Source: Candidatus Altimarinota bacterium
GTDB taxonomy: Bacteria > Patescibacteriota > Gracilibacteria > JBDHUY01
DNA length: 64,000 nt
Assembly: GCA_039809385.1 (NCBI GenBank)
Contig: JBDHUY010000008.1
Coordinates: forward strand, 33,251-97,250
Reading direction: 5' to 3'
Positions 5,540 through 21,924 of this stretch are shown here, in pieces. Both the position numbers and the translations under genes were made by a program. Below the pieces are notes generated by a model. It searched no databases and was not told where the DNA came from. It saw only the letters and a program-made list of their open reading frames with translations. How positions within the stretch are numbered: position 1 is the first letter of the stretch; each line of letters opens with the position of its first letter.

Positions 5540-6208
5540 TCAAAATGAACGATATTTTATCTTTCTTGAAACAAGCAAAAAAGCAAAAACAAGTGAAGGA
5601 ACCAGAAATATTAATACTTCGGGACCGCTTCTCGTCGAACGGGAACCGCTGATCGGAGCTCCTTGGTGTAAGGCAGCTTTTTGTCCTTGTGCTTGAGTTT
5701 CCAGATCCTGTAAAAAAGGTTGGCGACCGGAACCCGTTGAAACAGTCGAAGGACTCGTAGAAGCCGCAGCATGCACAAATACATATTTGGAATTGCTATT
5801 GGGATTGGTATGTTGATTGGTATTACCGTTCTGGGCCCCCACCCCGTCGGTTCGAGCCGGCGTAATGGGCGTATCGGTAAGATCCGTCAGCAACGAAGAA
5901 TTGCTGTTCGTCCCGGCGTTCGTATTCGAATTTGCCGAAGCGAGGACAGGTAAATCGGTACCGGGTAGAGTCTCGTCGCCCGGAACAACCATCGCGGTAT
6001 TAGGAACCAACTGTGCGCTGAACTGGCTGGAAGGGCCGGAAAACGAAAAATATAAAGCCCCCACTCCTACCGCCAGCAAAAAAGCGGCCAGTACAACTTT
6101 ACGTTTTTTGAAAAAACGTAAAGCCGGATGTTCTTCCGCAACGTGAATACGTATTTCGGGAGCCTGATCGGGAAGAGAAACGGTTTTTTGTCCGGTGAGG
6201 GGGTCCAT
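5540..6208 (-). CDS. low-complexity surface protein with N-terminal TM and C-terminal sortase-like signal
   Basis: KKRKVVLAAFLLAVGVGALYF TM; N/S/T-rich body; C-terminus TRSGPE-hydrophobic-RKIKYR. Confidence 0.7.
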   Translation of the reverse strand: MDPLTGQKTVSLPDQAPEIRIHVAEEHPALRFFKKRKVVLAAFLLAVGVGALYFSFSGPSSQFSAQLVPNTAMVVPGDETLPGTDLPVLASANSNTNAGTNSNSSLLTDLTDTPITPARTDGVGAQNGNTNQHTNPNSNSKYVFVHAAASTSPSTVSTGSGRQPFLQDLETQAQGQKAALHQGAPISGSRSTRSGPEVLIFLVPSLVFAFLLVSRKIKYRSF

Positions 6209-6247
6209 AGAGGAGTTATAAAAAGATGAAAGTAGAGAAAATATTTT

Positions 6248-7492
6248 TTATAAAGAAGAAAGTTTTCCGGATTTGACAGATAATTGTACCATGCGATAGG
6301 TTGGATAGACCAGAGCGCACAGAGCCAGGATCAACAGCAGATCTTCGGCCGGGCCCGAGCTGGCAGTTTGAGATAATTGATTGAGAGAAGCGATCGCTTC
6401 GGGATCGAGCGTCGAGGAAACATTGATCGAACCGTTCTGCCCTACCGTGATCGATACTTCGGAGGAGTAGCCGCTTTCAAACCCGTTCTGATCGGCAGAC
6501 GTCAAAACAAAGTAGTAGCGATCCCCCTGGGTAAGTCCGCCAAAGGTATAAGAAGTGCCGCTGACTTTTTTGCGGTGCAGATATTGATTCTTATGCTTGG
6601 TATAGTAAATGTAGTAGCTACTTACCCGTGGATCCTGAACCGGATCCCACGTAAGGGTCACGGAAGAGTCAAAGGTGGAAGCTCTGACATTTTGAGGGAT
6701 CGGAAGATTCGAAGCGGATGGGTATAGTGTGCCGGTTCCGGTATTTGACCCGGATGGAGCAGAACCGGAACCTGAGGACGATCCGGAAGAAGACCCGGCA
6801 CCGGACGAAGAACCGCTACCATTGCCTGGATTGACCGAAACGGCAGGAGGTGTTCCGTTGAGTACGAGAGTTACCGGCTTGGGAGGGGTAGCGGACAGTA
6901 CGTTGAACGGCAGTCCGCCCGAAATGACATTCGCATTGGTATGTCCCAGTTCGTTCGGCTGAAAATCGTTAAAACGGATCTCGGTGGTATCGCCTTTTTG
7001 TCCCGAGACAACCTTAAAGACGACCCGGACAACACTAACGGAAGGTTTGTCGACGCCACCGGTAGTATTCCCGCGACCGATGCGAACCAGCGACTGTTCG
7101 GGAGCAAATTCGTTTTCGCCCGGAGTGATTAGATCAAAATCGGAACCGGTACTATCAAGTTTTACCCCGGTCAGTTTTTTGGAATCGTAATTAAGCCAGG
7201 TCTCGGCCGAAATGATCTTTTGAGAAGACGGATTAAGTAACGCAATATCGACTGCCAGTTCGTCATTCTGTTTGACAAAATATTTGCCACCTACCGGCTT
7301 GATCTCTTCGTTGCTGCCACTGAGAGCACTGTTGGTATTACCGTTTTGAACTGCCCCGGAAGACAGACGTTTCACTTTGACATCGATCGTCACGTCTTTA
7401 TTGGGAACCGCTGTGGTCAAAGAGATCGGCAACACAAAAAAGAGGGTGGAAAAGAGCAGACCGGCGATGAATTGACGCAGACGGGTATTCAT
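6248..7492 (-). CDS. secreted cohesin-like + fibronectin type III protein with C-terminal sorting signal
   Basis: signal peptide; cohesin-like ELAVDIAL..AETWLNYDSKKL..VRVVFKV; G/S linker; FN3 (PQNVRAS..VTLTWDP..YYIYY..GLTQGDRYYFVLTSAD..ESGYS); TASSGP-TM tail. Confidence 0.8.
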   Translation of the reverse strand: MNTRLRQFIAGLLFSTLFFVLPISLTTAVPNKDVTIDVKVKRLSSGAVQNGNTNSALSGSNEEIKPVGGKYFVKQNDELAVDIALLNPSSQKIISAETWLNYDSKKLTGVKLDSTGSDFDLITPGENEFAPEQSLVRIGRGNTTGGVDKPSVSVVRVVFKVVSGQKGDTTEIRFNDFQPNELGHTNANVISGGLPFNVLSATPPKPVTLVLNGTPPAVSVNPGNGSGSSSGAGSSSGSSSGSGSAPSGSNTGTGTLYPSASNLPIPQNVRASTFDSSVTLTWDPVQDPRVSSYYIYYTKHKNQYLHRKKVSGTSYTFGGLTQGDRYYFVLTSADQNGFESGYSSEVSITVGQNGSINVSSTLDPEAIASLNQLSQTASSGPAEDLLLILALCALVYPTYRMVQLSVKSGKLSSL

Positions 7493-7498
7493 ACGAAT

Positions 7499-8113
7499 TT
7501 AAGGTTCCAGAGTAAGAAGCAGACCCGGGGAAACAGGTTTTTCCAGTATCGGATAAATAGTATTGCCCAGAACGCGTGTGGCCGTAGTGTGGGCTTCCGC
7601 ATGTTCCTGGAAATCGAAAAAGTCGATGGTGCTGGAAGAAAGCGCGGCAACCGGTTTGACCTTCAACTGGATACGTTCGACCAGAACAGGAGAAGTGTGC
7701 TGCGGACGCAGCAGTGATTTGCCGATCCGCACTACCCCTTGTTCATTATCAAAGTCATGTTCCTGCGGGGCGCTTAGTTCAAAGTCGTTCTTACTATCAT
7801 CCGGATGAAAGCCCACGACTTCGAGTTTGCTCGCATCGAACGAAAGCCAGCTACGTACCGAATCCACAGTCCCATTTTCAGGCAAAGTAAGTTCTACGTT
7901 GACCCAGAAGGTCTGATTGCTTTTCAGTTTTTGAGTATCCGTATTAAGCGATAAAGAGGCTTTCCGGTTCTTGGCCTGTTCTGCTTTGATCATCTGGGGT
8001 AAAGCGCTCCTGTGGATGCTTTCCGAAGAAGTCCCTTCAATCCCAGGCTGGCCGGAAGGTGTACATCCGGTAATGAGGAGCAAACCGATGATGAGAGATA
8101 CAAGCTTTTTCAT
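7499..8113 (-). CDS. lipoprotein with cohesin-like domain
   Basis: lipobox LLLITGC; FWVNVEL..VRSWLSFDASKLEVV..EQGVVRIG..IQLKVK, clearly paralogous to the domain in 6248-7492; ORF track start 8125. Confidence 0.75.
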   Translation of the reverse strand: MKKLVSLIIGLLLITGCTPSGQPGIEGTSSESIHRSALPQMIKAEQAKNRKASLSLNTDTQKLKSNQTFWVNVELTLPENGTVDSVRSWLSFDASKLEVVGFHPDDSKNDFELSAPQEHDFDNEQGVVRIGKSLLRPQHTSPVLVERIQLKVKPVAALSSSTIDFFDFQEHAEAHTTATRVLGNTIYPILEKPVSPGLLLTLEP

Positions 8114-8130
8114 GAGAGGAAACACGGGGA

Positions 8131-8165
8131 AGTAGAAAGTATCTGGTATTTAGTATCTAGTATCT
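8131..8165. repeat. 7-bp periodic GTAT array
   Basis: agtagaaagtatctggtatttagtatctagtatct; same family at 18354-18390, 62940-62979 and inverted at 26379-26411. Confidence 0.75.
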
Positions 8166-8255
8166 GAATTCTGACTGCTGACCGCCGGCAGACAGACACA
8201 GAGGGCTGCTTCTGCTAACCGCTAACCCCTGATTGCCGACCATCGCTGACCGTCC

Positions 8256-11200: not shown

Positions 11201-11291
11201 GACTGGATCCAAAGAGCAGCGTCAGTACCAATACAGCTGCGAAAACGATCAATCCAGTTATTTTTTTAGACAGCCGCGGGGTGTTTTGCAT
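8256..11291 (-). CDS. large surface protein: cohesin + IPT/TIG + four ~105-aa beta repeats + two Ig-like domains + dockerin-like EF-hand
   Basis: N-terminal TM; cohesin-like VAGIQLVVSYP..GRIQIAMA..VLKLNVEV..NGKITV; IPT IQSITP..IVIKGRNL; repeats SP.V.N(D)..T..D..G..D; C-terminal DLDKNGRVDFADFTIFSFDYG. Confidence 0.8.
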   Translation of the reverse strand: MQNTPRLSKKITGLIVFAAVLVLTLLFGSSPYLFTSLFPTNTGTSQTADLYIPQNYQASSGQTGEVEVKIGKSLAKVAGIQLVVSYPADQISIFDASNTGLATSGFLIVKNTNDPGRIQIAMAQATGIDIAPNTTVLKLNVEVKSSVTSGSQIPLTIATTTIADQNGTTLPVTSQNGKITVSGGSLPGSDAFIQSITPDFALKGQETSIVIKGRNLPSSVQEVRVCNTALTAVTVNSSEISGRVPATAPSGICSISVLGSNGQRIDKEGAFTILDQAEGLSVDEKASYFSPARVKNDNTMTTTLWVKIDDLRGVEDLEYVDANLAPIGGAASNRMTANRIVDKSQWFVLPDIKIPNTVATSSTPYQVTVTATNRIGKVAAGKINIIVVNDVQTGVLPLVRQGYTISPAVPNNGKTTFTLYTYVTNDDGADKIGKVVADLSVVGDSVKTMTKDGEAVGNGFWFKAEGATVNPQIAEGSYIATITASNVTGETANGTVSIRVSNDVNAPRILSESYVSPNRVPPDNTTTFSVFALVEDQDGDDDIGKVTASFGQLGIAPKELSKGAAAGRGSWYELKDIKVPTTTGQGKYRITLTVTDKQSNTGERDLEIEVVSPDLVKNAPLVDSNRSYSSPATVANDGKTQVCSYAFITDPDGPADIVQANLDLRELGNSPVNKMEEDRTEGKGKWFKFCGNIPPLVAPSSAPYELLITATDKSGAVAAGKILLRVVDTNPSGVTAPAIEAATAIAADKLEVRFSAPLNADTVQTSGANFQIFDRGDISRRLLVSGATLTTSSYIVVLTTATQEADKAYTVKVDTRIKDQNGNSLRSGFGDQSNFRGFKFDSRAPEVKLTDTPNSTTVELEFWRCVKSSSVSPDGSDFRVFDVANSRRELEVISSGFKNENTIVLKTEEQTSGLNYGITIKNVQSCSGTPVGALGIEVFFKGFINALRSDLDKNGRVDFADFTIFSFDYGCFRGYSDCKGAPPQENKNVNSAGSNQNNTNSNPILNANRNS

Positions 11292-11418
11292 GTTAGTTTG
11301 GGTATGTGGTTTTTTACCAGAAAATCAAGAAAGTATATCAAAAAAACATGGTTTTTGTAAGATTCCGGCATACGAATAGGCTTTACAGATTATTTTTTAG
11401 TATCTAATAGCATTCCTC

Positions 11419-11446
11419 TTGATCGGGCAGGGAGTTGTGCTATAGT
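11419..11446 (+). promoter_or_regulatory. sigma70-like promoter for the M20 peptidase
   Basis: TTGATC-16 bp-TATAGT with extended -10 TG. Confidence 0.45.
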
Positions 11447-11479
11447 ACCTCCCAACTTTTGACGTTTTTCCCTAAACCT

Positions 11480-12985
11480 ATGATCCAAAATTTAGAGAGC
11501 TTTAAAACGGATTCTCTTCTGTTACAGCGGACGCTTGAGATCTTCAGCGATATAACCGATATTCCGCGCCCGTCCAAAGGGGAAGGAAAAATCCAAAAAT
11601 TCCTATACGAATTCGCTGAAAAACAAGGATGGCAAGTATTCAAAGACACAACCGGCAATCTGGTTGTCCATGTCCCGCCTACTCCCGGACAAGCAAAGAA
11701 GAAAAGGATAGTCTTGCAGGGACACATGGACATGGTCAATATGGGAGGCAACGAGTCCAAAGCAACCGATGCCCATATCCAGAACGAGACGATCGAGATG
11801 GATAGCGGAGAGACAGAACACCCGTTTTTAAAGACCATACAGAATGAAACGACCCTCGGAGCAGACAACGCCTTATTCGGGATTGCTGCACCGTTAGCCT
11901 TTTTGTCGGATACGACGGTTCAGCACGGTCCAATAACGCTTATCTTTACCGTGGACGAAGAAGATGGCATGAGTGGGGCGAGAAATCTGGATAAAAATCT
12001 ACTGCCTCAGGATGCTGCGATGATCTTTAATCTGGATGCCGAAAACCGCGGCATGGTCTTTGCCGGTGCAGCCGGGAATCGGAGTGTAGATGCTTCGATG
12101 AAAATTAGCGAACGAACGGATATTCTGGAAACACACAACGTGTACACCTTGACTCTCAGGTTACCAGGGTTGGATAACCGCCATTCGGGAAGCGGACTGG
12201 GCTGGAAAAACGGGAATATCAGCGCAACCGAAATTTTGATGAACCATTTGCAACCTCTTCTAAAAAAATATCCGGAAGATATACAGTTCATTGCCTTTGA
12301 CGGTGGAGACGCCCCCAATGCCATCCCCGAGACCTTTTCGGTCCAGCTGGCAATTCCACCCCATATTATTAATGAATTGATGCTGCTGACCCGACCCGCG
12401 ACTCCGTTTCCGTTTGAGGGCAAGCTCGTCATACAAGAGAACCTTCAACCGGAACTCAAAGCACTCCGTCATGAAATTGCGCAAAAGGTGCTAAGCGTTC
12501 TCACAGAGTCTCCCAAAGGGCCTACGATTCGATCTGAAGATGCTCCGTTCGTACTGGTTTCGAACAATATCGGACAGATTACTACCGATGAAAAATCGAT
12601 TAGCCTCCGCAGTCTGGCTCGAGCAGCCACAAAAGAGGGATTGGATGAAATTGTCGATCAAATGACAACTATTCTGGGAAAAAATGACTTTCAGATCTCT
12701 TTGGGAGAATACAATCCGCCCTGGGAAAATGAAGAGCCTTTGCCCGCAGTCCAGCTGGTCAGAGAAGCTATGCAAGCAGTCTTAGGAATAGAGCCACGGA
12801 TCGTGCAGATTCACGCATCGGTGGAGACAGGCCTCGTACGCGACAAATTTGATTCGCAAGACATTTCGGCAGCCTCGTTCGGCGTCGCTATCCACGGAGC
12901 TCATTCCAAAAAAGAGAGAGCCGATCTGGTCTCTCTGGAGGAATCGCTGAACGTACTCCGATATATCCTGGAACACAGTCCCTAA
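11480..12985 (+). CDS. pepD: M20 family aminoacyl-histidine dipeptidase (PepD-like)
   Basis: IPRPSKGE, LQGHMDMV, TTLGADN, FTVDEEDGM, NLDAE, HSG, IHASVETG, HSKKER metal-binding motifs; ORF track start 11435. Confidence 0.85.
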   Translation: MIQNLESFKTDSLLLQRTLEIFSDITDIPRPSKGEGKIQKFLYEFAEKQGWQVFKDTTGNLVVHVPPTPGQAKKKRIVLQGHMDMVNMGGNESKATDAHIQNETIEMDSGETEHPFLKTIQNETTLGADNALFGIAAPLAFLSDTTVQHGPITLIFTVDEEDGMSGARNLDKNLLPQDAAMIFNLDAENRGMVFAGAAGNRSVDASMKISERTDILETHNVYTLTLRLPGLDNRHSGSGLGWKNGNISATEILMNHLQPLLKKYPEDIQFIAFDGGDAPNAIPETFSVQLAIPPHIINELMLLTRPATPFPFEGKLVIQENLQPELKALRHEIAQKVLSVLTESPKGPTIRSEDAPFVLVSNNIGQITTDEKSISLRSLARAATKEGLDEIVDQMTTILGKNDFQISLGEYNPPWENEEPLPAVQLVREAMQAVLGIEPRIVQIHASVETGLVRDKFDSQDISAASFGVAIHGAHSKKERADLVSLEESLNVLRYILEHSP

Positions 12986-12991
12986 TTGCGT

Positions 12992-13495
12992 TTATAGCGA
13001 AATATCAGCTTTCACAGGCGGGAGAAGTTGCGTACGAAATTCATCGTCAAATACCTGAATCTCACCCAGAGACAGGACCGTGGCAGACTTTTTCAAGATC
13101 AGGAAATGAAAGGTAAGAAATTTTTGATCCTGCGGATCGGCCTCTTTGGCCGAGGCGAGCGCAAAAGAAACGGTATTTTTTTCGGTATTGGTCGTAAGCA
13201 GAAAATCATCGAGCACTTTATGCTTTTCCACCGAGAGGAATTGCAGGGTTTCGGGATCAAAGGCGAGGCTTGCCGAAAGACCGCTCATCTTACGGAGTTC
13301 CTGCCCCTGCAGTACTATCTCAAGACGGCTGCCCTGAATCGTGGGATTCAGAAACCGGAGCGTTTGCTCGGGAGCGCTGCTGTGCTGGGACTCAGTAGGT
13401 GGAAGAGTCGGGCTGGAAGGAGCATTGCTAAAAGAGCAGGCTGTGCACAACAACAGGATTCCCGAAAAGACAAAAGTGAGAGGACGAAAGCGCAT
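12992..13495 (-). CDS. lipoprotein with cohesin-like domain
   Basis: lipobox LLLCTAC; MSGLSASLAFDPETLQFLSV..VSFALAS..FLTFHF cohesin pattern. Confidence 0.75.
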   Translation of the reverse strand: MRFRPLTFVFSGILLLCTACSFSNAPSSPTLPPTESQHSSAPEQTLRFLNPTIQGSRLEIVLQGQELRKMSGLSASLAFDPETLQFLSVEKHKVLDDFLLTTNTEKNTVSFALASAKEADPQDQKFLTFHFLILKKSATVLSLGEIQVFDDEFRTQLLPPVKADISL

Positions 13496-13506
13496 AGATA
13501 GTTTTT

Positions 13507-13858: not shown

Positions 13859-13865
13859 AGTTTTT

Positions 13866-14477
13866 TTAAGAAAAGGCATCCAATGCTGCTGGGGACACAC
13901 CAGGAGATCTGAGCGCATCCCGAATCTTGCGCCAACCTAATATCACCCGTGGAAGGTCGGCTTTTCCCTGTAAAAATGTTTCAACCAGATGGGTAGGAAG
14001 AATTCCTGCCAAAAGAGCATCAGGGATTTCCGGTATAAGCGCCCAGCCTACTGCCACATCAGGGGTAGGATCTATGGGAACATTTACTTTGAACCAGGCT
14101 AGGAAGGTTTTTACAATTTTTGCGCCATCCGCTCCCCACGACAGAGCTTCACCACCAAAAAGAATTGGCACTACGTCCGACACGGATATACCCAAGTTAA
14201 TTACTAATCGGTACAAAGCCTCGACCGCCACCGCAACATCCGGATCTTCAGCAAGATACTGTAGGGTATCGGGAGTCATATTTTTCCTCCTCCCGGTGAG
14301 GGTTGCCACCGTTTGAATCAGAGCATATCGGCCAGGTCCGTCCAGCACTTGACGCACCTTTTCGCCGACACCTTTCTGAACCTTGTCTGAAAATCGCGCA
14401 AATTCCGGAGATCCAGGTTTTCCTTTTCTTTCTATACTTACTGAAGGTTGTCGAGATGAATTTTCACGTAATGGCAT
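13866..14477 (-). CDS. hypothetical protein
   Basis: 203-aa ORF, co-oriented with neighbours; no family recognised. Confidence 0.6.
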   Translation of the reverse strand: MPLRENSSRQPSVSIERKGKPGSPEFARFSDKVQKGVGEKVRQVLDGPGRYALIQTVATLTGRRKNMTPDTLQYLAEDPDVAVAVEALYRLVINLGISVSDVVPILFGGEALSWGADGAKIVKTFLAWFKVNVPIDPTPDVAVGWALIPEIPDALLAGILPTHLVETFLQGKADLPRVILGWRKIRDALRSPGVSPAALDAFS

Positions 14478-14618: not shown

Positions 14619-14644
14619 AGGCAGACACGTGGGGCTGCCCCTAC
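14619..14644 (-). repeat. GTAG-type REP palindrome
   Basis: reverse complement GTAGGGGCAGCCCCACGTGTCTGCCT, just downstream of the stop of 14656-18339. Confidence 0.7.
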
Positions 14645-14655
14645 GCTACTCGCTT

Positions 14656-17600
14656 CTACCGGGTCAACTCCCTAAGCGCGCAGATCGCTTCGGGCACGCC
14701 GATCCGTCCGTCACCGTTGATATCTGCGAAAATATTGATAAACGGATCAGTCTGCTTCTTCGTTCCGACCGCCGCCTGCAGCGCAAAGATCGGATCCAGA
14801 ATATCAAACTGGCCGTTCCCATTCACGTCACACTTATTCACTTCCGACACCACCCGCAGGGGCACTGTCAGGCGCCGATCGATCTTGTTATCGGCACAAC
14901 TGGTCGCCTGCACCCGGATCGGGTACGTACCGTTTTGTACGGTAAATGGTACTCTAAATTCGAGATAGTACCAGCGCCCCCGGCCTTCGGACTCGGCAGG
15001 TTGCAAACGCCATTGACTGTTACAATCCCCGATCTGCGATCCGCTGCCGGTACACACGGGAGCAATATTAAGCTGCGAAAGATCGGCAGAAACTACACAG
15101 ATATCATCCCTGTTGCCGCTATCGCTTTCGACAAACACCCAGAAACGCGTACTGTAGCCACGAGCGACCGGGTTAGGATTGAAATGAGGTTCGTACCCAG
15201 CCGGATTGACCTCTGGAAAGGTCGGATTCACGGCTATGGTAATCGCATTGCTGGTCAAACTGTTAAACGTCCCCGAAATGCGGGTCGTACCAGTTTTTTT
15301 GGCAGCGAAGAGTCCTAGCGAATCAACCGCACCGATATCGGCATTACTGCTTGACCAGCTGAGCGCGGAAGTCACATCGACAAATTTGGTTTGGCCTGTC
15401 GCGGGATCTTTGTATTCGGCCAGCGCCTTGAGCGGAATAGTACCACCGATATCGGCCCCGAGTGAAATATTCAGCGGGAACGTCCCCTGCTCCTGTACCA
15501 GATTGGTAGTCGTAATATCAAAGGTCGGCTGGGAACCGCTGTAACGGACCGTAACGAGCGCATAGGCTTTATTTTGACCACTGCTCAGAGTCAGTACATC
15601 TTGGCCGCTGATAGAACCGGCGGTGTAGGTAACGGACTCGCCGGCTGTCCGGTCAAGAGAACCGCCTGCATTTCCGCGTAACGACCAAGTGACCGCGTTA
15701 CTGCTGCTGAGACGCGAAACTGCGCGGAACGAGACAGTATTGTTCGTCACTTGGTAACCGATCATCAGATCGTTAAACGGATTGGTAACGATATAGAGGT
15801 TTTGAAGCTGTAATTTACAGGTATCATCCGAAACGCACTGACGCTGGCCGCTGCCCGGAACTTTTTTACACACGTTAGTGCCGGCTTCGCAGACCGCATC
15901 GAAACAACTATCGTCCGAGGAACATTGCTTCTGTCCGGTACCGGGAATCGTGGCACACTGCAGATTCTGGCAGATCCGGTCGCTACAGCGGTCGGAGTTG
16001 GGCGTGGTGGTAAACGTACACTGGCCGTTAGTACATTGCCAGTCGGTGGTTTCGGTCGTCCCATTACACATCTGACTGGGGCGGCACTCGTCTTTGACGT
16101 TACAGGTTTTGAGCGCAATGTTAAACGTATTGCTACCGCGATTGATGGTTAAAGCGGTAGTTACAGCCGGGTCGTCTTTACACGGAGAAGCCACGTTCGT
16201 AACGCCTACGGTATAACCGACATTCGAAGGAATAGCTTCAATGATATAATTACCATCACTCCCGGTGGTAACGGGTCCGAGCGTAACACCTTTGGAAATG
16301 CTCACCCGGGCACCCGACACGGGATTATTGTTACACGTAACTTTTCCGGTCAAAGTACCGTTATTATTGCCATTGCCGTTTTGATTCTGACCGCCTCCCC
16401 CGCCATTAGTATTGAAATTCTGCCCACTGTTATTGTTGAGGTTACCGTTCTGTCCGCTGCCGTTATTCTGATTTTGATTGAGAACGCCATTCTGGTTCCC
16501 GTTTTGCGAACCGTTCTGATTCCCGTTGGAAGAAGAAGCTGCGCACACAAATATATAGCTGTGATTTTCGATGATATTCGATACGGTGAAAGTAAGTGTA
16601 TTTCCGTTCACATTACTCATATTGCTTTGAATATTGGAAAGAGGCGTACCATTATCCTTGATCGCATTCAACTGAAAACCCGACTGAATCGTGACATCAA
16701 TAGAGGCCGTACTGCCGGAAGATATCTGCTGACTGGCAGGACGAACCGAGCAGCCCGCACCTTCGGTTGCAGCAGTAACAGTAAAGGGACCGGAGCCGCC
16801 ACCGCTACCCGGAACCAGCCGGAAGTTGCCACCGCTCAATGCATGCAGACCGTTATTTCCATCAGAAATATCGACTGAGAAGCGAATTCCTGTTTCGGCT
16901 ACGCTTTGCCCTGCTTTGGGTTTAAAACGGATGGTAAACAATCCGATCGGAACGCTGGAAGGAGTAAGCGCCGTCCCCGACGTCGCCTGAACATTATAAA
17001 TGCCGCTGCCGATCTGCTCGGAACCGGTTGCCGTCAAAGCTCCGCCCGGATAGGTCGAGGTAAGCGTAATCGCATTTTTATTCGGCTCAAGGTAGGCAGG
17101 TAAGTTTTCGAAGCGAAAGGTATAGCCGCGCACACTAGGCGTAGTACTGCTACCGGCCGGTTTATCGAGCGAAACTTTAATCTCTTCGGTGCCGTCCTCA
17201 TTGACCCGGTAGCTCTCTTTATCCAGACAGACGCGAGCAAAATTATCCGAGATGCATACCGGATTGGCGGCCGCATTACTATTGCCATTGCCGCTACTGC
17301 TGCCCGTCGTTAAACGAAATTTACCACCGGTAAGAGAATGTAATGTATTTTGCTGATCCGACAGATCGGCTAAAAAATTTATATCGGTTGGGGTAACGGT
17401 AACACCGGCGATCGGACGAAAGCGGATCGAAAATAACGGAGTAGGCACGCTGGAAGGTGTAACGGCACTCCCCGAAGTCGCTTGGACGCGGTACTCGCCA
17501 TTTTGAATCTGGTCGGCCCCGCTCGCCGTAAGGCCATTCAGCAAGGAGGTGACCGTAATATTGTTTTTAGCCGGCTGCAGATAGCCCGGCAGATTTTTAA

Positions 17601-18339
17601 ACGTAACCGTGTAGCCACGTAAGGCCGGAGTCGCACTGCTGTTGGGAGATTTCTGCAAACTCACTCGAATTTCCTCTGTCCCGTCGCTGTTGACTTGATA
17701 GGATTCTTTGTCCACGCAAATACTGGCAAAATTATCGGAAATACAGGTAATACCCGGCGATCCTCCGCCGCCCGAGCCGGTAAGCTGAATCGCGGAAGCA
17801 GAGGACATGCTGTGCTTACCCCCGACATTGTCGGCTACCTCGGCTTTAAATTGGATGGACGAAGCAGCTACGGTTTGACCCGCGCGTACCTTAAACGTGA
17901 TACGAAACGCTTCGGAAGTTCCGGTAATATCTTTGGGAGAACCGGTGCTCAACACGACGTTAAACGTCCGATCATTCAGGATTGCGCTGCTGGGCACGAG
18001 CGTGGCACCGGCGAAATCGCTGCCGAGCGTTACTTCGGGTGTATCAAGAAAAGATGGTAATTGAGCAAACTGAACACTGAGTGCCCCTACCCGCGGGTTT
18101 TGCGAAGCGTTAGCCGGTTTCTGAACGCGAAAACTGATCGTTTCGAAACGGTCGCCCGAAACGGCGTAGCTGTCTTTATCCGTACTGAAAACGATATAGT
18201 TGTCGCTTGAAGAAACCAGCGCGGTCTTCAACTGGCTTCCAAGGCCGTTTACTATCAATACCAAAACTGTCAAGATGAGGAACGCCAGACCAGAGAAGAA
18301 CACGCGAGGATGGATTTTTTGGAAAAGTTTGTTTTTCAC
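14656..18339 (-). CDS. large surface protein: three cohesin-like repeats, N/Q/G linker, carboxypeptidase-regulatory-like, Cys-rich repeats, Big_2-like, C-terminal two-repeat dockerin
   Basis: N-terminal TM; repeats DN....DK.SY.V..D..E.I; LTGKVTCNNNPVSGARV; WSSSNADIGAVDSLG; dockerin CDVNGNGQFDILDPIFALQ...ADINGDGRIGVPEAICALR. Confidence 0.85.
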   Translation of the reverse strand: MKNKLFQKIHPRVFFSGLAFLILTVLVLIVNGLGSQLKTALVSSSDNYIVFSTDKDSYAVSGDRFETISFRVQKPANASQNPRVGALSVQFAQLPSFLDTPEVTLGSDFAGATLVPSSAILNDRTFNVVLSTGSPKDITGTSEAFRITFKVRAGQTVAASSIQFKAEVADNVGGKHSMSSASAIQLTGSGGGGSPGITCISDNFASICVDKESYQVNSDGTEEIRVSLQKSPNSSATPALRGYTVTFKNLPGYLQPAKNNITVTSLLNGLTASGADQIQNGEYRVQATSGSAVTPSSVPTPLFSIRFRPIAGVTVTPTDINFLADLSDQQNTLHSLTGGKFRLTTGSSSGNGNSNAAANPVCISDNFARVCLDKESYRVNEDGTEEIKVSLDKPAGSSTTPSVRGYTFRFENLPAYLEPNKNAITLTSTYPGGALTATGSEQIGSGIYNVQATSGTALTPSSVPIGLFTIRFKPKAGQSVAETGIRFSVDISDGNNGLHALSGGNFRLVPGSGGGSGPFTVTAATEGAGCSVRPASQQISSGSTASIDVTIQSGFQLNAIKDNGTPLSNIQSNMSNVNGNTLTFTVSNIIENHSYIFVCAASSSNGNQNGSQNGNQNGVLNQNQNNGSGQNGNLNNNSGQNFNTNGGGGGQNQNGNGNNNGTLTGKVTCNNNPVSGARVSISKGVTLGPVTTGSDGNYIIEAIPSNVGYTVGVTNVASPCKDDPAVTTALTINRGSNTFNIALKTCNVKDECRPSQMCNGTTETTDWQCTNGQCTFTTTPNSDRCSDRICQNLQCATIPGTGQKQCSSDDSCFDAVCEAGTNVCKKVPGSGQRQCVSDDTCKLQLQNLYIVTNPFNDLMIGYQVTNNTVSFRAVSRLSSSNAVTWSLRGNAGGSLDRTAGESVTYTAGSISGQDVLTLSSGQNKAYALVTVRYSGSQPTFDITTTNLVQEQGTFPLNISLGADIGGTIPLKALAEYKDPATGQTKFVDVTSALSWSSSNADIGAVDSLGLFAAKKTGTTRISGTFNSLTSNAITIAVNPTFPEVNPAGYEPHFNPNPVARGYSTRFWVFVESDSGNRDDICVVSADLSQLNIAPVCTGSGSQIGDCNSQWRLQPAESEGRGRWYYLEFRVPFTVQNGTYPIRVQATSCADNKIDRRLTVPLRVVSEVNKCDVNGNGQFDILDPIFALQAAVGTKKQTDPFINIFADINGDGRIGVPEAICALRELTR

Positions 18340-18353
18340 GACAAGGAATGGGG

Positions 18354-18538
18354 ATCTAGTATAAAGTATCTGGTATTACGTATTTGGTATGGGACATCGG
18401 TTTTTATGGATTTTCGACTTTTTATGATTTTTTCGATTTAGTCCTTCTCTTTGCTGTCAGCTGTCAACTGTAAGCTTGTTGTCGCTCCTAACTCCCAACT
18501 CCAATCTCCCGACTCTCCGCACATGGGTCTGCACCTAC
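18354..18538. repeat. mosaic intergenic block of heptamer/nonamer arrays ending in a GTAG REP
   Basis: GTAT heptamers 18354-18390, nonamers ~18398-18440, CTGTCAG/CTGTAAG heptamers 18452-18476, CTCC heptamers 18485-18518, REP 18518-18538 whose TAG is the stop of the upstream gene. Confidence 0.7.
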
Positions 18539-21500
18539 GAGCACGTCTGCCCGTTGGGCCAGCTATTATTGAGCAGGAAAAAGGCCATGAACTGAATGTC
18601 GGTAATATCGATTTTGGTTTGGTCGCGATTGGCGGTATTGCAATTTAACTGAGGCGGATTCGCATCGTTTTTCACATCCCCGTTTTTGATATTGGTCGCA
18701 TTGGCCGGGACAGTTTTGTCGGCCAGAAATTGCATGACCGTCGTAAGATCGTTAATTTTAAAGCCGTTCTGGCAGTCGACATCGCCTAATGTGGGACAAC
18801 TGCTGCCGCCGTCTGTGGTAATCGAAAAAGTTGTATCGCTACGATCAGTCGGGGTACAGTTTTTGACGCCGGTTCCGTCCGCTTCGCAGTTTTCTACTTG
18901 AACCTTATACACATTCCCGGAAGTTTCGGCTGCCGGGAATGTAACACTTTTTTCTCGCACATCAACGTTACTGACCAGCCGATCGAAGATGGCTAAGGGA
19001 GTCGAAACAGCAACATCATTTTTCAATAACACGACACGTATTTTGGGCTTTGTCAGATGTGCCGGATTCCAGGCAATCGTGGTCGTATCACCCGATTTAA
19101 AGGACTCTCCCCCATCGGGGCGTAATACGGTTATGGCTACGGGGAAAGCGCCCGAACTGGCAATGGTAAACGGGGTTGTTTCGGAGATCACACCGGACTG
19201 AAAATCACAGAATCCCTGCGCGGGATCGTTTTGACACAAGCCGATCACGATTTTATAGTTCTGCCCGGTCAGTTCGGGCATGGTAATAACTTCCTTTTTG
19301 GCACCGTTGCTCGTATCGCTCACGGTTCGTAAAGGAGTACTACGTGTATTCCCGCTAAAGAGTTGAATCTGGAGTTTTTTGCCTTGGGGAGTATTCTGCT
19401 GGGTCCAGGAAAGGGTATAGCTGTTCCCATTCTTGAGGATACGGGATGCGGCTCCTTCCAGTTCGACGATTTTAGCGGATGTCACGCTGGGGGTAGCTCC
19501 GCCTGACCCGCTTGTAATTTCAAATGAGGCGCTGGTAACCGAAACGCCGGTAATGGCGCACGGATCGACCTGACTGTCGACCTGGCACAAGGCCACCCGA
19601 ATCAAATAGCCGGGTCCGGGCGTTACGTTGGGAATAACGCGATCAACTGTACGCTCGCTGTTTTGTACGTTCGTGTCGTAAGCCCCCAACCGTTGAGCAG
19701 CCTGACCGTTTTTGAAGAGAAGAATCACAATGCGGCTATTGGCCGGAATATTAGCTTGCGTCCATTTGATATTGAGAGAGGCTCCCTGGGCAATCTTGTC
19801 CTGATTCAAACCCGTAAGAACCAGATTCGTAATGCTTGGCGTGCTGCTGCCGGTAGTGATCTCAAAGGACGCGCTTGTAACCGAAACTCCCGTAATATTG
19901 CAGGGGTCTTGGTTATCGTTCTCGCAGAGCGCTACGCGGATCAGATAACCTGGTCCGACCGAAACATTCGGAATTGTTCGAACCACTGAACGCTCTCCGT
20001 TTTGGGTATTGGTTTCAAAAACGCCCAACTTTTGAGGTTGTTGTCCGGTTTTAAAGAGACTAATCTGAATCCGGCTGTTGGCTGGAATATTAGCTTGTGT
20101 CCATTTAATAGTCAGATTGGCGCCTTGGGAAATTTTGTCCTGATTCAACCCTTCCAAAAACAGATTGGTAATACTGGCCTGGGCGCCACCACCGGCGGTA
20201 ACGGTCACAGAAACCGGATTGGTTGCGCGAAACTGCGGATTGTCACCCCACTTCGCCTGAAAAATAGTTGAATAATTCCCCTGGCTGCTATAGCGATGCT
20301 TGAAGGTATAACAATTGTCGTTTTTTTTACAAGTTACAGTTTCGTCTCCCGGCGTCTGAGCAGAAAACTGCCCCTGAGTATCGCCGAAATTAGCGGTAAA
20401 TTGAGGGTCTCCCGCACAAGTGGCATTGCCGGTTTTGTCCAGATCGAGCGAAAAGGTGATATCCTCGTTGGTTGTCGCACTCGTTTTGTCGGCACCAAAA
20501 GATTGTATCGTAAAATTGCACAAAGGCGACTGCGCAGGCACAACCGGCGTGACGGGATCGGAAACACCCAGAATACTGTCGGGATGGTCGGCGCCGGTAT
20601 TATCTATGATTTTTAATATTGCGGTAATCTGTTTCCCGGCCGGCAATCCTGTTACGACGCATGTACGAAGGGATTTATCCTTCATGCTCTTATTACTGTC
20701 GGGACAAACATATGCGGGGCCTGTCGATTGTTCACAGGTTTCAGCTTGGGAAAGAGTATCGCCATAGCAAACCTTGTAATGATTAAATGTCGACGGGACG
20801 GTCGACACCCCCGGATCGCCCCAATTAAATTTGACAGCGCCTCCCTGCTGCAACTGCAGATCGGGAGAAAATCCCAGATGGCGGGTGGTTCTAAAAATTT
20901 GCCGATCCGATTTTGTGTTATTCCCGTCAAAGCGTTTAGCGGTAACCAAAACGCAATATTCTGTATCGGGATTGAGAAGCGCGGTACCGTCTTTGTTAAA
21001 CACAAACGACCGCAAGCGGGCATCCAGCTCTATCGTTTTATTCGGCCAGCCCTCGTCACCATAGGTACAGCGGGTTTCAGCCGTTCCGCTGCTGCTGAGC
21101 GGTCGTCCCCATTTGACCGTGTAGCTGGAGATCTGATCCTGGCGATTGAAGAACCAACCGACTTCGAGGCTGTTACTGGAGCTAAAGAGCTGTTGAATAG
21201 AGCCGTCAACCAGGGGACTATTGCTGTTATTTTGATTGGTATTGGCAGCTAGAACGTCAATTCTACGAGGTTCGGTCGGGAGATCACTCTGACAAGCGCC
21301 ACCCCAGTTGACCGAAAAGAGCGGACGATAGGTTCCGGGGGTAACGTAGGTATGCGAAGGGCTGGAACGGGTTGAGGTATTGCCATCGCGGAAATCCCAG
21401 GTATAGACAGGTGTTCCGAAGCATTTGTCGTTCGTTGCTTGTACATTGCTGTCAAATTGGACAAAAAAGTTTGGAGCTGTTTGACCGGCGGCAAAGGTAG

Positions 21501-21804
21501 CGGTGGGAGCAACGCTGAATTGACACTCGGCGCTGGGCAAGCATATGGGACCGGCGTTGAGGTTGTCGTTTATCGGGTCGCCGCAACCGGCTCCAACGGT
21601 TATGCCAAAGAACGTAAAACAGGGAGACGGCCCTTCCAAAGAACCGGAAGAGATCGAGGTTTGTATAGTACGGCCGCTTTGACCTACCCAAAGGGACATG
21701 GCCGTGGCAAACCCGACGACGAGGATTCCGAAAAAAAGCGGCCACCTGCGTTGGCGCAGAAAGAGCAAGAATTTGTTTAGGGACCGACCTTTGGTTTTGG
21801 GCAT
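18535..21804 (-). CDS. large surface protein: PKD, FN3-like, PKD, four Ser/Thr-rich beta repeats, C-terminal dockerin
   Basis: N-terminal TM; PKD YTWDFRDGNTST..PSHTYVTPGTY; near-identical tandem repeats SITNL.L.GLNQDKI.QG; ITVLRPDGGESFKSGDTTTIAW; dockerin GDVDCQNGFKINDLTTVMQFL...GDV...KIDITDIQFM; ORF track start 21855. Confidence 0.82.
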   Translation of the reverse strand: MPKTKGRSLNKFLLFLRQRRWPLFFGILVVGFATAMSLWVGQSGRTIQTSISSGSLEGPSPCFTFFGITVGAGCGDPINDNLNAGPICLPSAECQFSVAPTATFAAGQTAPNFFVQFDSNVQATNDKCFGTPVYTWDFRDGNTSTRSSPSHTYVTPGTYRPLFSVNWGGACQSDLPTEPRRIDVLAANTNQNNSNSPLVDGSIQQLFSSSNSLEVGWFFNRQDQISSYTVKWGRPLSSSGTAETRCTYGDEGWPNKTIELDARLRSFVFNKDGTALLNPDTEYCVLVTAKRFDGNNTKSDRQIFRTTRHLGFSPDLQLQQGGAVKFNWGDPGVSTVPSTFNHYKVCYGDTLSQAETCEQSTGPAYVCPDSNKSMKDKSLRTCVVTGLPAGKQITAILKIIDNTGADHPDSILGVSDPVTPVVPAQSPLCNFTIQSFGADKTSATTNEDITFSLDLDKTGNATCAGDPQFTANFGDTQGQFSAQTPGDETVTCKKNDNCYTFKHRYSSQGNYSTIFQAKWGDNPQFRATNPVSVTVTAGGGAQASITNLFLEGLNQDKISQGANLTIKWTQANIPANSRIQISLFKTGQQPQKLGVFETNTQNGERSVVRTIPNVSVGPGYLIRVALCENDNQDPCNITGVSVTSASFEITTGSSTPSITNLVLTGLNQDKIAQGASLNIKWTQANIPANSRIVILLFKNGQAAQRLGAYDTNVQNSERTVDRVIPNVTPGPGYLIRVALCQVDSQVDPCAITGVSVTSASFEITSGSGGATPSVTSAKIVELEGAASRILKNGNSYTLSWTQQNTPQGKKLQIQLFSGNTRSTPLRTVSDTSNGAKKEVITMPELTGQNYKIVIGLCQNDPAQGFCDFQSGVISETTPFTIASSGAFPVAITVLRPDGGESFKSGDTTTIAWNPAHLTKPKIRVVLLKNDVAVSTPLAIFDRLVSNVDVREKSVTFPAAETSGNVYKVQVENCEADGTGVKNCTPTDRSDTTFSITTDGGSSCPTLGDVDCQNGFKINDLTTVMQFLADKTVPANATNIKNGDVKNDANPPQLNCNTANRDQTKIDITDIQFMAFFLLNNSWPNGQTCS

Positions 21805-21924
21805 AAGGGGCAAATGAAAAAGCAATGTGGGAGATTCTTGGCGTTTTAAAAACAAGAATTCTTATCATAATAACAAAAAAATCGATTTTGTTCAACGAGG
21901 GTATTTTCGTTTTTGGCAAAAGTG

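What the first reader, a model, noticed from the sequence alone, without database searches (positions are those of the whole stretch)
5540..21855. Enzyme-free cohesin-dockerin gene cluster: candidate cellulosome-like surface scaffold in a CPR-type bacterium
Seen: seven co-oriented exported-protein genes. Cohesin-like domains occur in 6248-7492, 7499-8113, 8256-11291 and 12992-13495, and probably three times in 14656-18339. Dockerin-like Ca-binding repeats end 8256-11291 (~8370-8447), 14656-18339 (~14656-14832) and 18535-21804 (~18560-18786). Anchors differ: two lipoproteins, two C-terminal sorting signals and several N-terminal TMs. Established: cohesin-dockerin pairs assemble clostridial/ruminococcal cellulosomes, whose dockerins mostly carry CAZymes. 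Here the cargo is only Ig/PKD/FN3/IPT/Cys-rich modules. Inference: anchored cohesins recruit dockerin adhesins, and proteins with both modules could chain into a polymeric coat or host-attachment structure.
Basis: partly seen in the sequence, partly recalled or inferred. Interest (0 to 1): 0.85.

Follow-up and report, generated by a model that had tools for sequence, protein, structure and literature searches.

The report
Cohesin-dockerin surface protein cluster, CPR bacterium
A bacterium of the candidate phyla radiation carries a run of surface-protein genes built from cohesin modules and at least one true dockerin, the plug-and-socket parts known from cellulosomes, here joined only to adhesin-like domains, so it probably builds a surface scaffold, not an enzyme machine.

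Summary
The observation largely holds. Five co-oriented exported proteins (B, C, D, E, G) carry seven cohesin modules. Support is strong for E (AlphaFold2 model whose listed PDB matches are all cohesins) and D (E 1e-7 to a solved clostridial cohesin). It is moderate for B, C and G module 1, and rests on paralogy for G modules 2 and 3. Only one of the three claimed dockerins is verified. G's C-terminus has two Ca-loop segments, passes the Pfam Dockerin_1 cut-off and is conserved in three relatives. D has a single Ca loop (half a dockerin). H's C-terminus is dockerin-like by eye only. No catalytic domain was found in A-H, but only 64 kb was visible. RseP phylogeny places the organism among Gracilibacteria/Peregrinibacteria-type CPR. 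A predicted E-cohesin x G-dockerin complex got weak support (0.49 against a best control of 0.20). No cohesin or dockerin lies beside rseP in 71 related loci. One relative seems to keep E-like and G-like genes on one 3,036-bp contig. Non-cellulosomal cohesin-dockerin modules are already known, also in CPR, so this is a new variant of a known kind. Interest is moderate.

The parts
3399..5510 (-). AAA+ ATPase gene (703 aa), 29 bp downstream of A, co-oriented; possibly co-transcribed, role unknown
   Evidence: Pfam AAA E 1.9e-10 at residues 424-552; gap of 29 bp
5540..6208 (-). A: 222-aa protein with an N-terminal TM, an S/T/N-rich middle, and a C-terminal 'SGPE' + hydrophobic + basic tail
   Evidence: no Pfam or NCBIfam hit
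6248..7492 (-). B: signal/TM, cohesin module (about 6854-7327), FN3 (6452-6697), C-terminal 'SGPAE' + hydrophobic + basic anchor (6251-6364)
   Evidence: Pfam Cohesin E 1.1e-4, fn3 E 1.1e-8; homologous to C, blastp 5e-14; tail
7499..8125 (-). C: lipoprotein (lipobox ITGC, 8063-8074) with one cohesin module (about 7514-7972); likely start at 8113
   Evidence: Pfam Cohesin E 5.7e-3. Atlas features: 21 of 30 hits in Cohesin clusters at 0.92. B/C profile: the top two PDB hits are cohesins, E 0.031 and 0.065. One relative, P0002, 48% identity
8256..11291 (-). D: N-terminal TM, cohesin (10743-11159), IPT/TIG (10476-10718), four tandem ~112-aa Ig-like repeats (9087-10448), Big_5 (8802-9071), single Ca loop DLDKNGRVDFAD (8409-8444), low-complexity tail
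   Evidence: Pfam; cohesin E 1e-7 to PDB 6kgc_A over 14-140 of 141 residues; repeats; Ca loop; no Dockerin_1 hit
11435..12985 (+). PepD-like M20 dipeptidase with no signal peptide, on the opposite strand; it splits the cluster into D-C-B-A-AAA and H-G-F-E
   Evidence: Pfam Peptidase_M20 E 3.9e-11; TIGR01893 264.5 bits, below its 343.75 cut-off
12992..13495 (-). E: 167-aa lipoprotein (Cys21, 13433-13444) with one cohesin module (12995-13363)
   Evidence: Pfam E 1.3e-4. 15 relatives, of which 11 of the 14 scanned carry Pfam Cohesin. AF2 pLDDT 86.9. Foldseek: 88 PDB matches at E <= 1e-3, and all listed rows are cohesin entries. Family profile against PDB: the top 14 are cohesins, best 2.2e-7
13866..14477 (-). 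F: 203-aa protein with no signal peptide and no family; not one of the exported set
14656..18339 (-). G: N-terminal TM. Three cohesin-like modules (17773-18219, 17299-17754, 16804-17256). N/Q/G-rich linker, Cys-rich region, Big_2 (15259-15372). Ig-like module homologous to the D repeats (14863-15192). Dockerin (14659-14859)
   Evidence: Pfam Cohesin 25.6 bits, above the cut-off. Modules are paralogous. Dockerin_1 25.1 bits for the isolated C-terminus. Ortholog P0020 scores Dockerin_1 31.9 bits. Both Ca loops are kept in 3 relatives. PDB profile: dockerins are the top hits for this part, E 6.5e-3
18535..21855 (-). H: N-terminal TM, PKD (21310-21513), about four Kre9/KNH-like Ig modules (18856-20211), Cys-containing C-terminus that looks dockerin-like by eye (18556-18792); likely start at 21804
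   Evidence: Pfam; repeats. C-terminus: no Pfam hit at E <= 10, hhalign E 0.17, AF2 pLDDT 33.5. Atlas: 22 of 30 hits in the Dockerin_1 set at 0.90, a lead only

Best explanation
This is a non-cellulosomal cohesin-dockerin surface assembly system of a CPR bacterium.

Shown: five exported proteins display cohesin modules and are held at the envelope in different ways. C and E are lipoproteins. B has a C-terminal hydrophobic anchor or sorting signal. D and G have N-terminal signal-anchors or long signal peptides. G carries three cohesin-like modules and ends in a complete two-segment dockerin.

Inferred: G's dockerin binds, with Ca2+, to one of the anchored cohesins, which would tether G's long Ig/Cys-rich stalk to the cell. 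Alternatively it binds a cohesin of another G or of D, which would give chains or branches, as in adaptor scaffoldins. D (one Ca loop) and H (divergent C-terminus) may attach in the same way, but this is unproven. The displayed modules (FN3, IPT/TIG, Big_2, Big_5, PKD, Kre9/KNH-like, Cys-rich) are adhesin-type. The likely output is therefore an adhesive surface scaffold, plausibly used for attachment to a host cell or a substrate.

The excess of cohesins (7) over dockerins (1 to 3) means that further dockerin-bearing partners are probably encoded outside the window. Their nature is unknown.
For: COHESIN IDENTITY
- E: 16 hits among 1.84 billion representatives, self included. They include Halovivax proteins with 14 and 8 Pfam cohesins (E 1.1e-83 and 3.2e-49).
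- E model: pLDDT 86.9. All listed PDB matches are cohesin entries, for example 2jh2 at E 4.5e-8 and 2xdh, a non-cellulosomal cohesin of Archaeoglobus.
- D: E 1e-7 to solved cohesin 6kgc_A.
- Five adjacent proteins hit Pfam Cohesin; 0 of 30 other ORFs do.

DOCKERIN IDENTITY
- G's C-terminus scores 25.1 bits against a cut-off of 22.9. Its ortholog P0020 scores 31.9 bits over positions 1-56 of 57.
- Both Ca loops are conserved in P0020, P0021 and P0022.

HANDLE AND CARGO PATTERN
- The three relatives share G's C-terminal cassette at 55-61% identity but have different N-terminal parts and lengths (731, 842 and 1379 aa).

PREDICTED BINDING
- E cohesin x G dockerin scored 0.49 (runs 0.53, 0.49, 0.45). 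The best of 3 controls scored 0.20. The tool's verdict was 'weak support'.
- The mark was reached by 116 of 157 solved complexes and 2 of 215 mismatched pairs. At 0.60 or under it was reached by only 18 of those 157 and by both mismatches that passed.
- The runs agree in at least 96% of contacts and the partner's pLDDT is 71-72.
- My own alignments were used, so these counts hold only roughly. Similar complexes are solved, so the pass may reflect likeness.

ANCHORS AND GENE ORDER
- The lipobox Cys is conserved in the E family. TM segments and tails.
- Spacing in D-C-B-A-AAA is tight, with gaps of 142, 6, 39 and 29 bp.

POSSIBLE CONSERVED ADJACENCY
- E-like P0013 and G-like P0020 are each reported on one contig of 3,036 bp from the same source. 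Their cohesin parts are 27-33% identical to the window's.
Against: - Only one verified dockerin stands against seven cohesins. D has half a dockerin, and H's C-terminus has no statistical support.
- G modules 1-3 are the weakest cohesins. Module 1 alone scores 21.7 bits, under the cut-off. A profile of the three finds no solved cohesin, only repeat artefacts on designed propellers. hhalign against the E family, D and the B/C family gives E 0.38, 0.06 and 8.7e-4, the last over only 23 columns.
- A profile of all seven modules found nothing in the PDB.
- The complex prediction is weak and tested a single pair.
- G's dockerin as a single sequence scores as close to calmodulin (E 0.018) as to a dockerin (E 0.03).
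- No cohesin, dockerin or homolog of A-H lies within 10 kb of rseP in 71 loci. No such Pfam family appears in the 25 largest ORFs of 9 of the 11 loci from the window's RseP clade.
- There is no expression, localisation or binding data.
Confidence: 0.55

Rival explanations
1. Enzyme-docking scaffold, cellulosome-like or amylosome-like. The anchored cohesins mainly receive dockerin-bearing hydrolases or proteases encoded elsewhere in the genome. The cluster would be the scaffoldin locus only, like the sca or cipA-olp scaffoldin clusters of clostridia and ruminococci.
For: - Cohesins outnumber dockerins 7 to 1-3, so partners must lie elsewhere.
- The E-family profile is closest in sequence to type II cohesins of anchoring and adaptor scaffoldins: 3l8q E 2.2e-7, 5g5d E 2.1e-4.
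- A relative's dockerin protein, P0022, has a ~600-aa N-terminal part with an HExxH motif, seen by eye.
- A CPR Shapirobacterales genome was reported to express cohesin and dockerin proteins, and its authors read this as a cellulosome (passage of bioRxiv 10.1101/2021.08.21.457207).
Against: - No catalytic domain and no CBM in A-H.
- No other dockerin in the 64-kb window: the G-type HMM was run over 552 six-frame ORFs, and Pfam over 30 ORFs.
- The only glycosidase-like ORF (41482-43059, GH18 E 8.7e-5, under the cut-off) has no dockerin.
- P0022's N-terminal part has no Pfam family at E <= 0.01 and no PDB relative, so the protease reading is unsupported.
Confidence: 0.2
2. Independent adhesins. 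The cohesin-fold modules serve as structural or ligand-binding (for example glycan-binding) beta-sandwiches of separate surface proteins. The cluster is a fast-evolving island of paralogous surface-protein genes. G's C-terminal Ca-binding module stabilises the protein or binds something other than a cohesin.
For: - The modules are very divergent: 14-18% identity to D's module.
- Relatives are few. C has 1, H has none in the length range searched, and G has 3. That is typical of rapidly evolving surface proteins.
- Relatives near rseP carry large SLH-anchored surface proteins instead.
- A review states that the function of cohesin and dockerin outside cellulosomes is not known (PMC5244752 passage).
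Against: - A complete dockerin and seven cohesins co-occur in one 16-kb cluster, and both occur in one protein. This is hard to explain without an interaction.
- The dockerin is the best-conserved part of G's family, 55-61% identity against 27-33% for the cohesins.
- The complex prediction passed weakly, above its controls.
Confidence: 0.2

Closest known systems
Non-cellulosomal cohesin and dockerin modules. Peer et al. 2009, FEMS Microbiol Lett 291:1, seen only as a citation and as summarised in PMC5244752. Solved examples: Archaeoglobus fulgidus cohesin 2xdh and Clostridium perfringens cohesin modules 2jh2, 2vo8 and 2w1n
   Same: Cohesin fold and two-segment dockerin in an organism with no sign of cellulose use. 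The E model's best PDB matches are exactly these non-cellulosomal cohesins.
   Different: Here many cohesins sit in one cluster, with lipoprotein anchors and adhesin-only cargo. The C. perfringens modules sit on glycoside hydrolases (entry descriptions).
Cellulosomal scaffoldin systems of clostridia and ruminococci: anchoring scaffoldins, and adaptor scaffoldins that carry both cohesins and a dockerin (for example ScaB of Acetivibrio cellulolyticus, PDB 3l8q and 4uyp)
   Same: Multi-cohesin proteins. A protein with cohesins plus a dockerin (G). Separate single-cohesin anchoring proteins. Clustering of scaffoldin genes (the last point is recalled).
   Different: No CAZyme, CBM or SLH domain in the cluster. 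Anchoring is by lipobox, TM segment or an unknown C-terminal signal. The organism is a CPR bacterium.
Cohesin and dockerin proteins already noted in CPR and other ultra-small or syntrophic microbes. Cand. Shapirobacterales: expressed cohesin type I/II and dockerin type III proteins (bioRxiv 10.1101/2021.08.21.457207, passage). Southlakia epibionticum: essential dockerin-domain envelope protein SEML1_0315 (PMC10633639, passage). Omnitrophota: giant ORF with nine non-cellulosomal dockerins 'that may serve as adhesins' (PMC10066038, passage). ANME archaea (PMC5244752, passage)
   Same: The same modules in host-dependent or consortium-forming microbes, with adhesion proposed as their role.
   Different: Those reports list domains in passing. 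None of the passages read describes a clustered set of anchored cohesins plus a cohesin-dockerin adaptor. Dataset S6 of the bioRxiv paper could not be seen.
Haloarchaeal multi-cohesin proteins: Halovivax limisalsi WP_282102556.1 with 14 cohesins, and H. cerinus WP_256532705.1 with 8
   Same: They are the best large relatives of E's cohesin (E 4.7e-25 and 3.6e-12).
   Different: They are archaeal, with tandem arrays on one polypeptide. Their context and partners were not examined.

Membership tests
Cohesin domain (Pfam PF00963) | Match to the family HMM at or above the curated cut-off (24.1 bits) | tested here: inconclusive
   G passes at 25.6 bits. B (22.8), E (22.6), D (20.2) and C (17.3) fall below it, with E-values of 1e-4 to 6e-3. 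G module 1 alone scores 21.7 bits, and G modules 2 and 3 give no hit.
Cohesin domain (Pfam PF00963) | Flattened beta-sandwich (jelly-roll) fold superposable on solved cohesins | tested here: met
   Tested for E only. The core has pLDDT above 94 and is all-beta. Foldseek gives 88 PDB matches at E <= 1e-3, and all listed rows are cohesin entries. TM-score normalised to the target reaches 0.79. B, C, D and G were not modelled.
Cohesin domain (Pfam PF00963) | Sequence homology to experimentally characterised cohesins | tested here: met
   D: E 1e-7 to 6kgc_A. E family: E 2.2e-7 to 3l8q, and the top 14 hits are all cohesins. B/C family: weak, E 0.031 and 0.065. G modules: not met.
Cohesin domain (Pfam PF00963) | Binds a dockerin | tested here: inconclusive
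   Only E x G-dockerin was predicted. The result was weak support: 0.49 against a best control of 0.20. The mark was reached by 116 of 157 solved and 2 of 215 mismatched pairs; at 0.60 or under, by 18 of the 157 and by both mismatches that passed. No experiment was possible.
Dockerin (Pfam PF00404 Dockerin_1) | Two tandem segments of about 22 residues, each a 12-residue Ca-binding loop followed by a helix | tested here: met
   Met for G: DVNGNGQFDILD at residue 1171 and DINGDGRIGVPE at 1206, 35 residues apart. Both loops are kept in 3 relatives. Not met for D, which has one loop. Inconclusive for H: the first loop is plausible by eye and the second is degenerate with an insertion.
Dockerin (Pfam PF00404 Dockerin_1) | Match to the family HMM at or above the cut-off (22.9 bits) | tested here: met
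   G's C-terminus alone scores 25.1 bits, against 16.5 bits within the whole protein. Ortholog P0020 scores 31.9 bits. The C-termini of D and H give no hit at E <= 10.
Dockerin (Pfam PF00404 Dockerin_1) | Ca2+-dependent folding and cohesin binding | not testable with these tools
   This needs ITC, ELISA or CD with and without Ca2+/EDTA.
Cellulosome | Dockerin-bearing carbohydrate-active enzymes | tested here: not met
   No catalytic family in A-H. None of 30 other window ORFs has a dockerin. This covers the 64-kb window only; the rest of the genome was not seen.
Cellulosome | Scaffoldin with several cohesins and a carbohydrate-binding module; anchoring by SLH or sortase | tested here: not met
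   G has three cohesin-like modules, but no CBM or SLH family is found in A-H. There is no LPXTG-type model hit. A sortase gene lies 27 kb away at 48417-49589.
Candidate phyla radiation (Patescibacteria) | Phylogenetic placement of a vertically inherited gene | tested here: met
   This rests on one gene, RseP. The 11 best phmmer scores are from MAGs labelled Altimarinota, Gracilibacteria, Peribacteria, Peregrinibacteria or Parcubacteria, plus one labelled Oceanicoccus. In the tree the window falls in an 11-row clade of these, with support 83/92 (not starred). Best identity is 46%, to L001. Altimarinota belongs to the Patescibacteria group. The code is standard: TGA is the stop of 4 of 32 genes.

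The most novel reading that the evidence does not exclude
The cluster encodes a self-assembling, enzyme-free cohesin-dockerin tether. G's dockerin plugs into the lipoprotein cohesins (C, E) or into the cohesins of other G and D molecules. This builds a branched adhesin layer with which this CPR cell grips its host. The modular 'constant dockerin handle, variable head' architecture seen in its relatives would let the lineage swap host-binding heads quickly.
Probability: 0.2. Interest if true: 0.8.

Novelty: new variant of a known kind. Interest (0 to 1): 0.5.

Why it matters
How CPR bacteria attach to their hosts is largely unknown. A dockerin-domain envelope protein was found to be essential in the one genetically tractable Saccharibacterium (PMC10633639, passage). 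A compact locus with defined cohesins, one defined dockerin and defined anchors gives a small, testable set of pairs for binding assays. It could show what cohesin-dockerin pairs do outside polysaccharide breakdown. [quoted passage not shown] 2009. If the cohesins turn out to dock enzymes encoded elsewhere, the finding would instead be a CPR cellulosome-like machine. That would also be of interest.

Tried and rejected
- A profile of all seven window modules against the PDB gave 0 hits.
- A profile of G modules 1-3 against the PDB gave only repeat-summed artefacts on designed propeller proteins (Cake, Scone) and no cohesin.
- hhalign of G modules 2/3 against the E family gave nothing, E 0.38.
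- AlphaFold2 of H's C-terminus as a single sequence gave pLDDT 33.5, which is unusable, so no fold search was run.
- A homolog search for H's C-terminus found only the protein itself, within the length range 608-1936 aa.
- A genome-contig scan with the G-cassette alignment matched 59 pattern stretches, and none was confirmed. Neither the window's genome nor those of P0021/P0022 are in that collection.
- The RseP-based loci contained no cluster homologs. Their RseP is at most 46% identical, so this says little about close relatives.
- NCBIfam has no model for A-H and no sorting-signal hit.
- The promoter and terminator scan was not above shuffles: 27 promoter-like sites against 23.3 +/- 4.5, and 15 terminator-like sites against 23.0.
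- P0022's 'protease' reading was rejected as unsupported.
- The paper of Peer et al. 2009 (PMC3035643) is not held.
- Literature searches for prior description in CPR:
  - cohesin + dockerin + Patescibacteria: 7 papers;
  - cohesin + dockerin + candidate phyla radiation: 4 papers;
  - lineage names + dockerin or cohesin domain;
  - dockerin + CPR: 13 papers.
  I read passages from seven of the papers these and searches listed. None describes such a cluster; the other listed papers were not opened.
The genomic context of P0002, P0005-P0013 and P0020-P0022 therefore remains unseen.

Full report
WHAT IS THERE

Between 3.4 and 21.9 kb the minus strand carries ten genes in two runs: H-G-F-E and D-C-B-A-AAA. 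A PepD-like M20 dipeptidase gene on the plus strand separates them. Gaps in the second run are 142, 6, 39 and 29 bp, which suggests one transcription unit that also takes in an AAA+ ATPase gene. A consensus promoter and terminator scan was not above shuffled sequence. F has none.

COHESINS

Pfam Cohesin matches five adjacent proteins. G passes the 24.1-bit cut-off at 25.6 bits. B, E, D and C fall just below it, with E-values from 1.1e-4 to 5.7e-3. None of the 30 other large ORFs of the window has such a hit at E <= 1e-3. Independent tests differ in strength from protein to protein.

- E. An exhaustive phmmer search of 1.84 billion representatives gave 16 hits, self included. Seven are small proteins of 124-171 aa at about 30% identity. 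Six of these seven, like E, have a Cys aligned at a lipobox; the seventh is truncated. The rest are multi-cohesin proteins. I scanned 14 of the 15 relatives, leaving out the 6351-aa P0010. Eleven of the 14 carry Pfam Cohesin at E <= 0.01, up to 14 copies and E 1.1e-83. Two of them are named cohesin domain-containing proteins of Halovivax.
- E, structure. An AlphaFold2 model built on a 14-row alignment has mean pLDDT 86.9, with an all-beta core above 94. Foldseek against the PDB gave 88 matches at E <= 1e-3. Every row listed is a cohesin module or a cohesin-dockerin complex. The list is led by the C. perfringens cohesin-like module 2jh2 (E 4.5e-8) and includes the non-cellulosomal Archaeoglobus cohesin 2xdh.
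- E, family profile. A profile of the E family finds solved cohesins as its top 14 PDB hits, best E 2.2e-7.
- D. Its N-terminal module matches the solved cohesin chain 6kgc_A at E 1e-7 over its whole length.
- B and C. They are homologous to each other (blastp 5e-14). Their profile's two best PDB hits are cohesins, but weakly (E 0.031 and 0.065). hhalign to the E family gives E 2.9e-4. A language-model look-alike search for C put 21 of 30 hits in Cohesin clusters at 0.92.
- G. Its three modules are paralogs (3e-16 and 4e-20). Their cohesin assignment rests on the Pfam hit to module 1 alone. Profile searches gave no solved cohesin.

DOCKERINS

Only G's is verified.
- It has two canonical 12-residue Ca loops 35 residues apart, each followed by a helix-like stretch.
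- The isolated C-terminus passes Dockerin_1 at 25.1 bits against a cut-off of 22.9.
- The ortholog P0020 scores 31.9 bits over nearly the whole model.
- The loops are kept in all three relatives.
- With the family profile, dockerins are the best PDB matches for this part, though only at E 6.5e-3 to 1.7e-2, with a polcalcin close behind at 0.02.

D has one Ca loop, half a dockerin, and no Dockerin_1 hit. A strict Ca-loop pattern occurs three times in 33,276 residues of 150 ORFs. All three are in these two C-termini, against 0.06 expected. D's loop is therefore real but incomplete.

H's C-terminus reads like a dockerin by eye. The first segment looks plausible, and the second is degenerate with an insertion of about 15 residues. 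It fails every statistical test used:
- no Pfam hit at E <= 10;
- no match to the G-type dockerin HMM;
- hhalign E 0.17;
- no relatives;
- AlphaFold2 pLDDT 33.5.

A look-alike search gave 22 of 30 hits in a Dockerin_1 set at 0.90, which the tool rates as a lead only.

CARGO AND ANCHORS

The other recognised domains are fn3, IPT/TIG, Big_5, Big_2, PKD and Kre9/KNH-like Ig modules. There are also four tandem ~112-aa repeats in D that recur before G's dockerin, and Cys-rich stretches. No catalytic family or CBM was found in A-H with Pfam or NCBIfam.

C and E are probable lipoproteins. A and B share a C-terminal 'SGP' + hydrophobic + basic tail that no other annotated gene among the 150 ORFs has. 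It has no LPXTG motif and matches no NCBIfam sorting-signal model. It may be a plain membrane anchor or an undescribed sorting signal. A sortase gene lies at 48417-49589.

ORGANISM

RseP (1905-3128) was used to scan one genome per GTDB species, and 71 loci were confirmed. The 11 best scores are from MAGs labelled Altimarinota, Gracilibacteria, Peribacteria, Peregrinibacteria or Parcubacteria, plus one labelled Oceanicoccus. The first clearly non-CPR hit follows at a lower score. In a maximum-likelihood tree the window sits in an 11-row clade of these lineages, with support 83/92. Its best identity is only 46%. Altimarinota is in the Patescibacteria group. TGA ends 4 of 32 genes, so the standard code applies. 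The 'CPR-type' label is supported, but on one gene.

RELATIVES AND SYNTENY

The cluster's proteins are rare. C has one relative. G's C-terminal cassette has three. H's C-terminus has none. G's relatives keep the Cys-rich / Big_2 / Ig / dockerin cassette at 55-61% identity but differ in their N-terminal parts. The cohesins diverge faster, at 27-33% identity. This 'constant handle, variable head' pattern fits a docking role.

Direct synteny could not be tested.
- The first genome scan, with the G cassette, confirmed nothing.
- The 71 rseP loci hold no homolog of A-H and no cohesin or dockerin by my HMMs.
- The 25 largest ORFs of 9 related loci show no cohesin or dockerin by Pfam. Five of them instead carry SLH domains.
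- These relatives are distant, so this is weak evidence against conservation.

One hint points the other way. E-like P0013 and G-like P0020 are each reported on a single contig of 3,036 bp from the same source. Most simply they are neighbours on one contig.

BINDING

One complex job was available, and I tested E's cohesin against G's dockerin.
- The verdict was weak support. The score was 0.49 (runs 0.53, 0.49, 0.45) and the best of three controls scored 0.20.
- The mark was reached by 116 of 157 solved complexes and 2 of 215 mismatched pairs. At 0.60 or under it was reached by only 18 of those 157 and by both mismatches that passed.
- The runs agree in at least 96% of contacts and the partner's pLDDT is 71-72.
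- My own alignments were used, so the counts hold only roughly. Cohesin-dockerin complexes are well represented among solved structures, so the pass may reflect likeness and not a specific pairing.

MECHANISM

Shown: anchored proteins carry cohesins, and one adaptor-like protein carries three cohesin-like modules and a dockerin.

Inferred: Ca-dependent docking of G (and perhaps D and H) onto anchored cohesins or onto each other, giving an adhesive surface scaffold. Seven cohesins against one to three dockerins implies further partners outside the window, so 'enzyme-free' is true only of what was visible.

Rivals, each about 0.2:
- an enzyme-docking scaffoldin locus whose enzymes lie elsewhere;
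- a set of independent adhesins that merely use the cohesin fold.

KNOWN CONTEXT AND NOVELTY

Cohesin and dockerin modules outside cellulosomes are established. The ANME review PMC5244752 cites Peer et al. 2009. [quoted passage not shown] The Peer paper itself is not held.

Passages read in CPR and similar microbes report:
- expressed cohesin and dockerin proteins in Cand. Shapirobacterales (its Dataset S6 was not seen);
- an essential dockerin-domain envelope protein in Southlakia;
- non-cellulosomal dockerins proposed as adhesins in Omnitrophota.

Four literature searches listed papers that mention these modules together with CPR lineages. None describes a clustered system of anchored cohesins plus a cohesin-dockerin adaptor in CPR. 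The other listed papers were not opened.

I rate this a new variant of a known kind. The modules are real and the locus is a good experimental entry point. Function and binding are unproven, the idea of non-cellulosomal adhesive cohesin-dockerin systems is already in print, and two of the three claimed dockerins do not hold up. Interest is 0.5.

Noticed in passing
window 3399-5510 (-): An AAA+ ATPase (703 aa) with a ~380-aa N-terminal part of no known family lies 29 bp downstream of A on the same strand. It may be co-transcribed with the surface-protein genes.
   Followed up: partly
window 48417-49589 and 49638-53027 (-): A sortase with a ~240-aa N-terminal extension lies next to a 1129-aa protein that has no Pfam or NCBIfam family. 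No LPXTG-type substrate was seen in the window. The 'SGP' tails of A and B might be substrates of an unknown sorting system.
   Followed up: partly
window 46617-48185 (-): A 522-aa protein with pyrimidine-nucleoside-phosphorylase-type domains (PYNP_C, Glycos_trans_3N). From memory, it resembles the AMP phosphorylase of the archaeal and CPR nucleotide salvage route.
   Followed up: no
window 25575-31156 (-): A lower-GC stretch (0.39-0.46) holds a weak HEPN_Apea-like ORF (E 9.2e-4), two ORFs of about 250 aa and a 1005-aa ORF, none with a family. It may be a defence or mobile island.
   Followed up: no
window 41482-43059 (-): A membrane-anchored 525-aa protein has a sub-threshold GH18 match (E 8.7e-5, 22.8 bits against a 29.6 cut-off). 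It is the only glycosidase-like ORF in the window and has no dockerin.
   Followed up: no
L003 and L026: L003 is labelled Oceanicoccus sp. (Pseudomonadota), but its RseP groups with a Gracilibacteria MAG at 100/99 support. L026 is labelled a Pacearchaeota archaeon, but it carries a bacterial RseP that groups with Saccharibacteria. Both contigs are probably mis-binned.
   Followed up: no
L002:111-6137, L003:46-3582, L004:14221-17151, L006:19171-21048: Related Gracilibacteria and Peribacteria MAGs carry large SLH-domain surface proteins near rseP, in place of cohesin proteins. The cluster proteins A-H have no SLH hit.
   Followed up: no
P0010 (Ambystoma mexicanum XP_069503376.1, 6351 aa): An axolotl protein matched E's cohesin in 10 stretches at E 3.9e-12. 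It is an animal protein with repeated cohesin-like modules. It was not examined.
   Followed up: no
P0013 and P0020: An E-like cohesin and a G-like cohesin-dockerin protein of a relative are each listed on one contig of exactly 3,036 bp from the same source. They are probably neighbours, but the contig could not be read.
   Followed up: partly
alignment A7 (G modules 1-3): The profile gave apparently strong PDB E-values (down to 6.7e-13) to designed propeller proteins (Cake, Scone). No single stretch passed. This is a repeat-summing artefact, not homology.
   Followed up: yes
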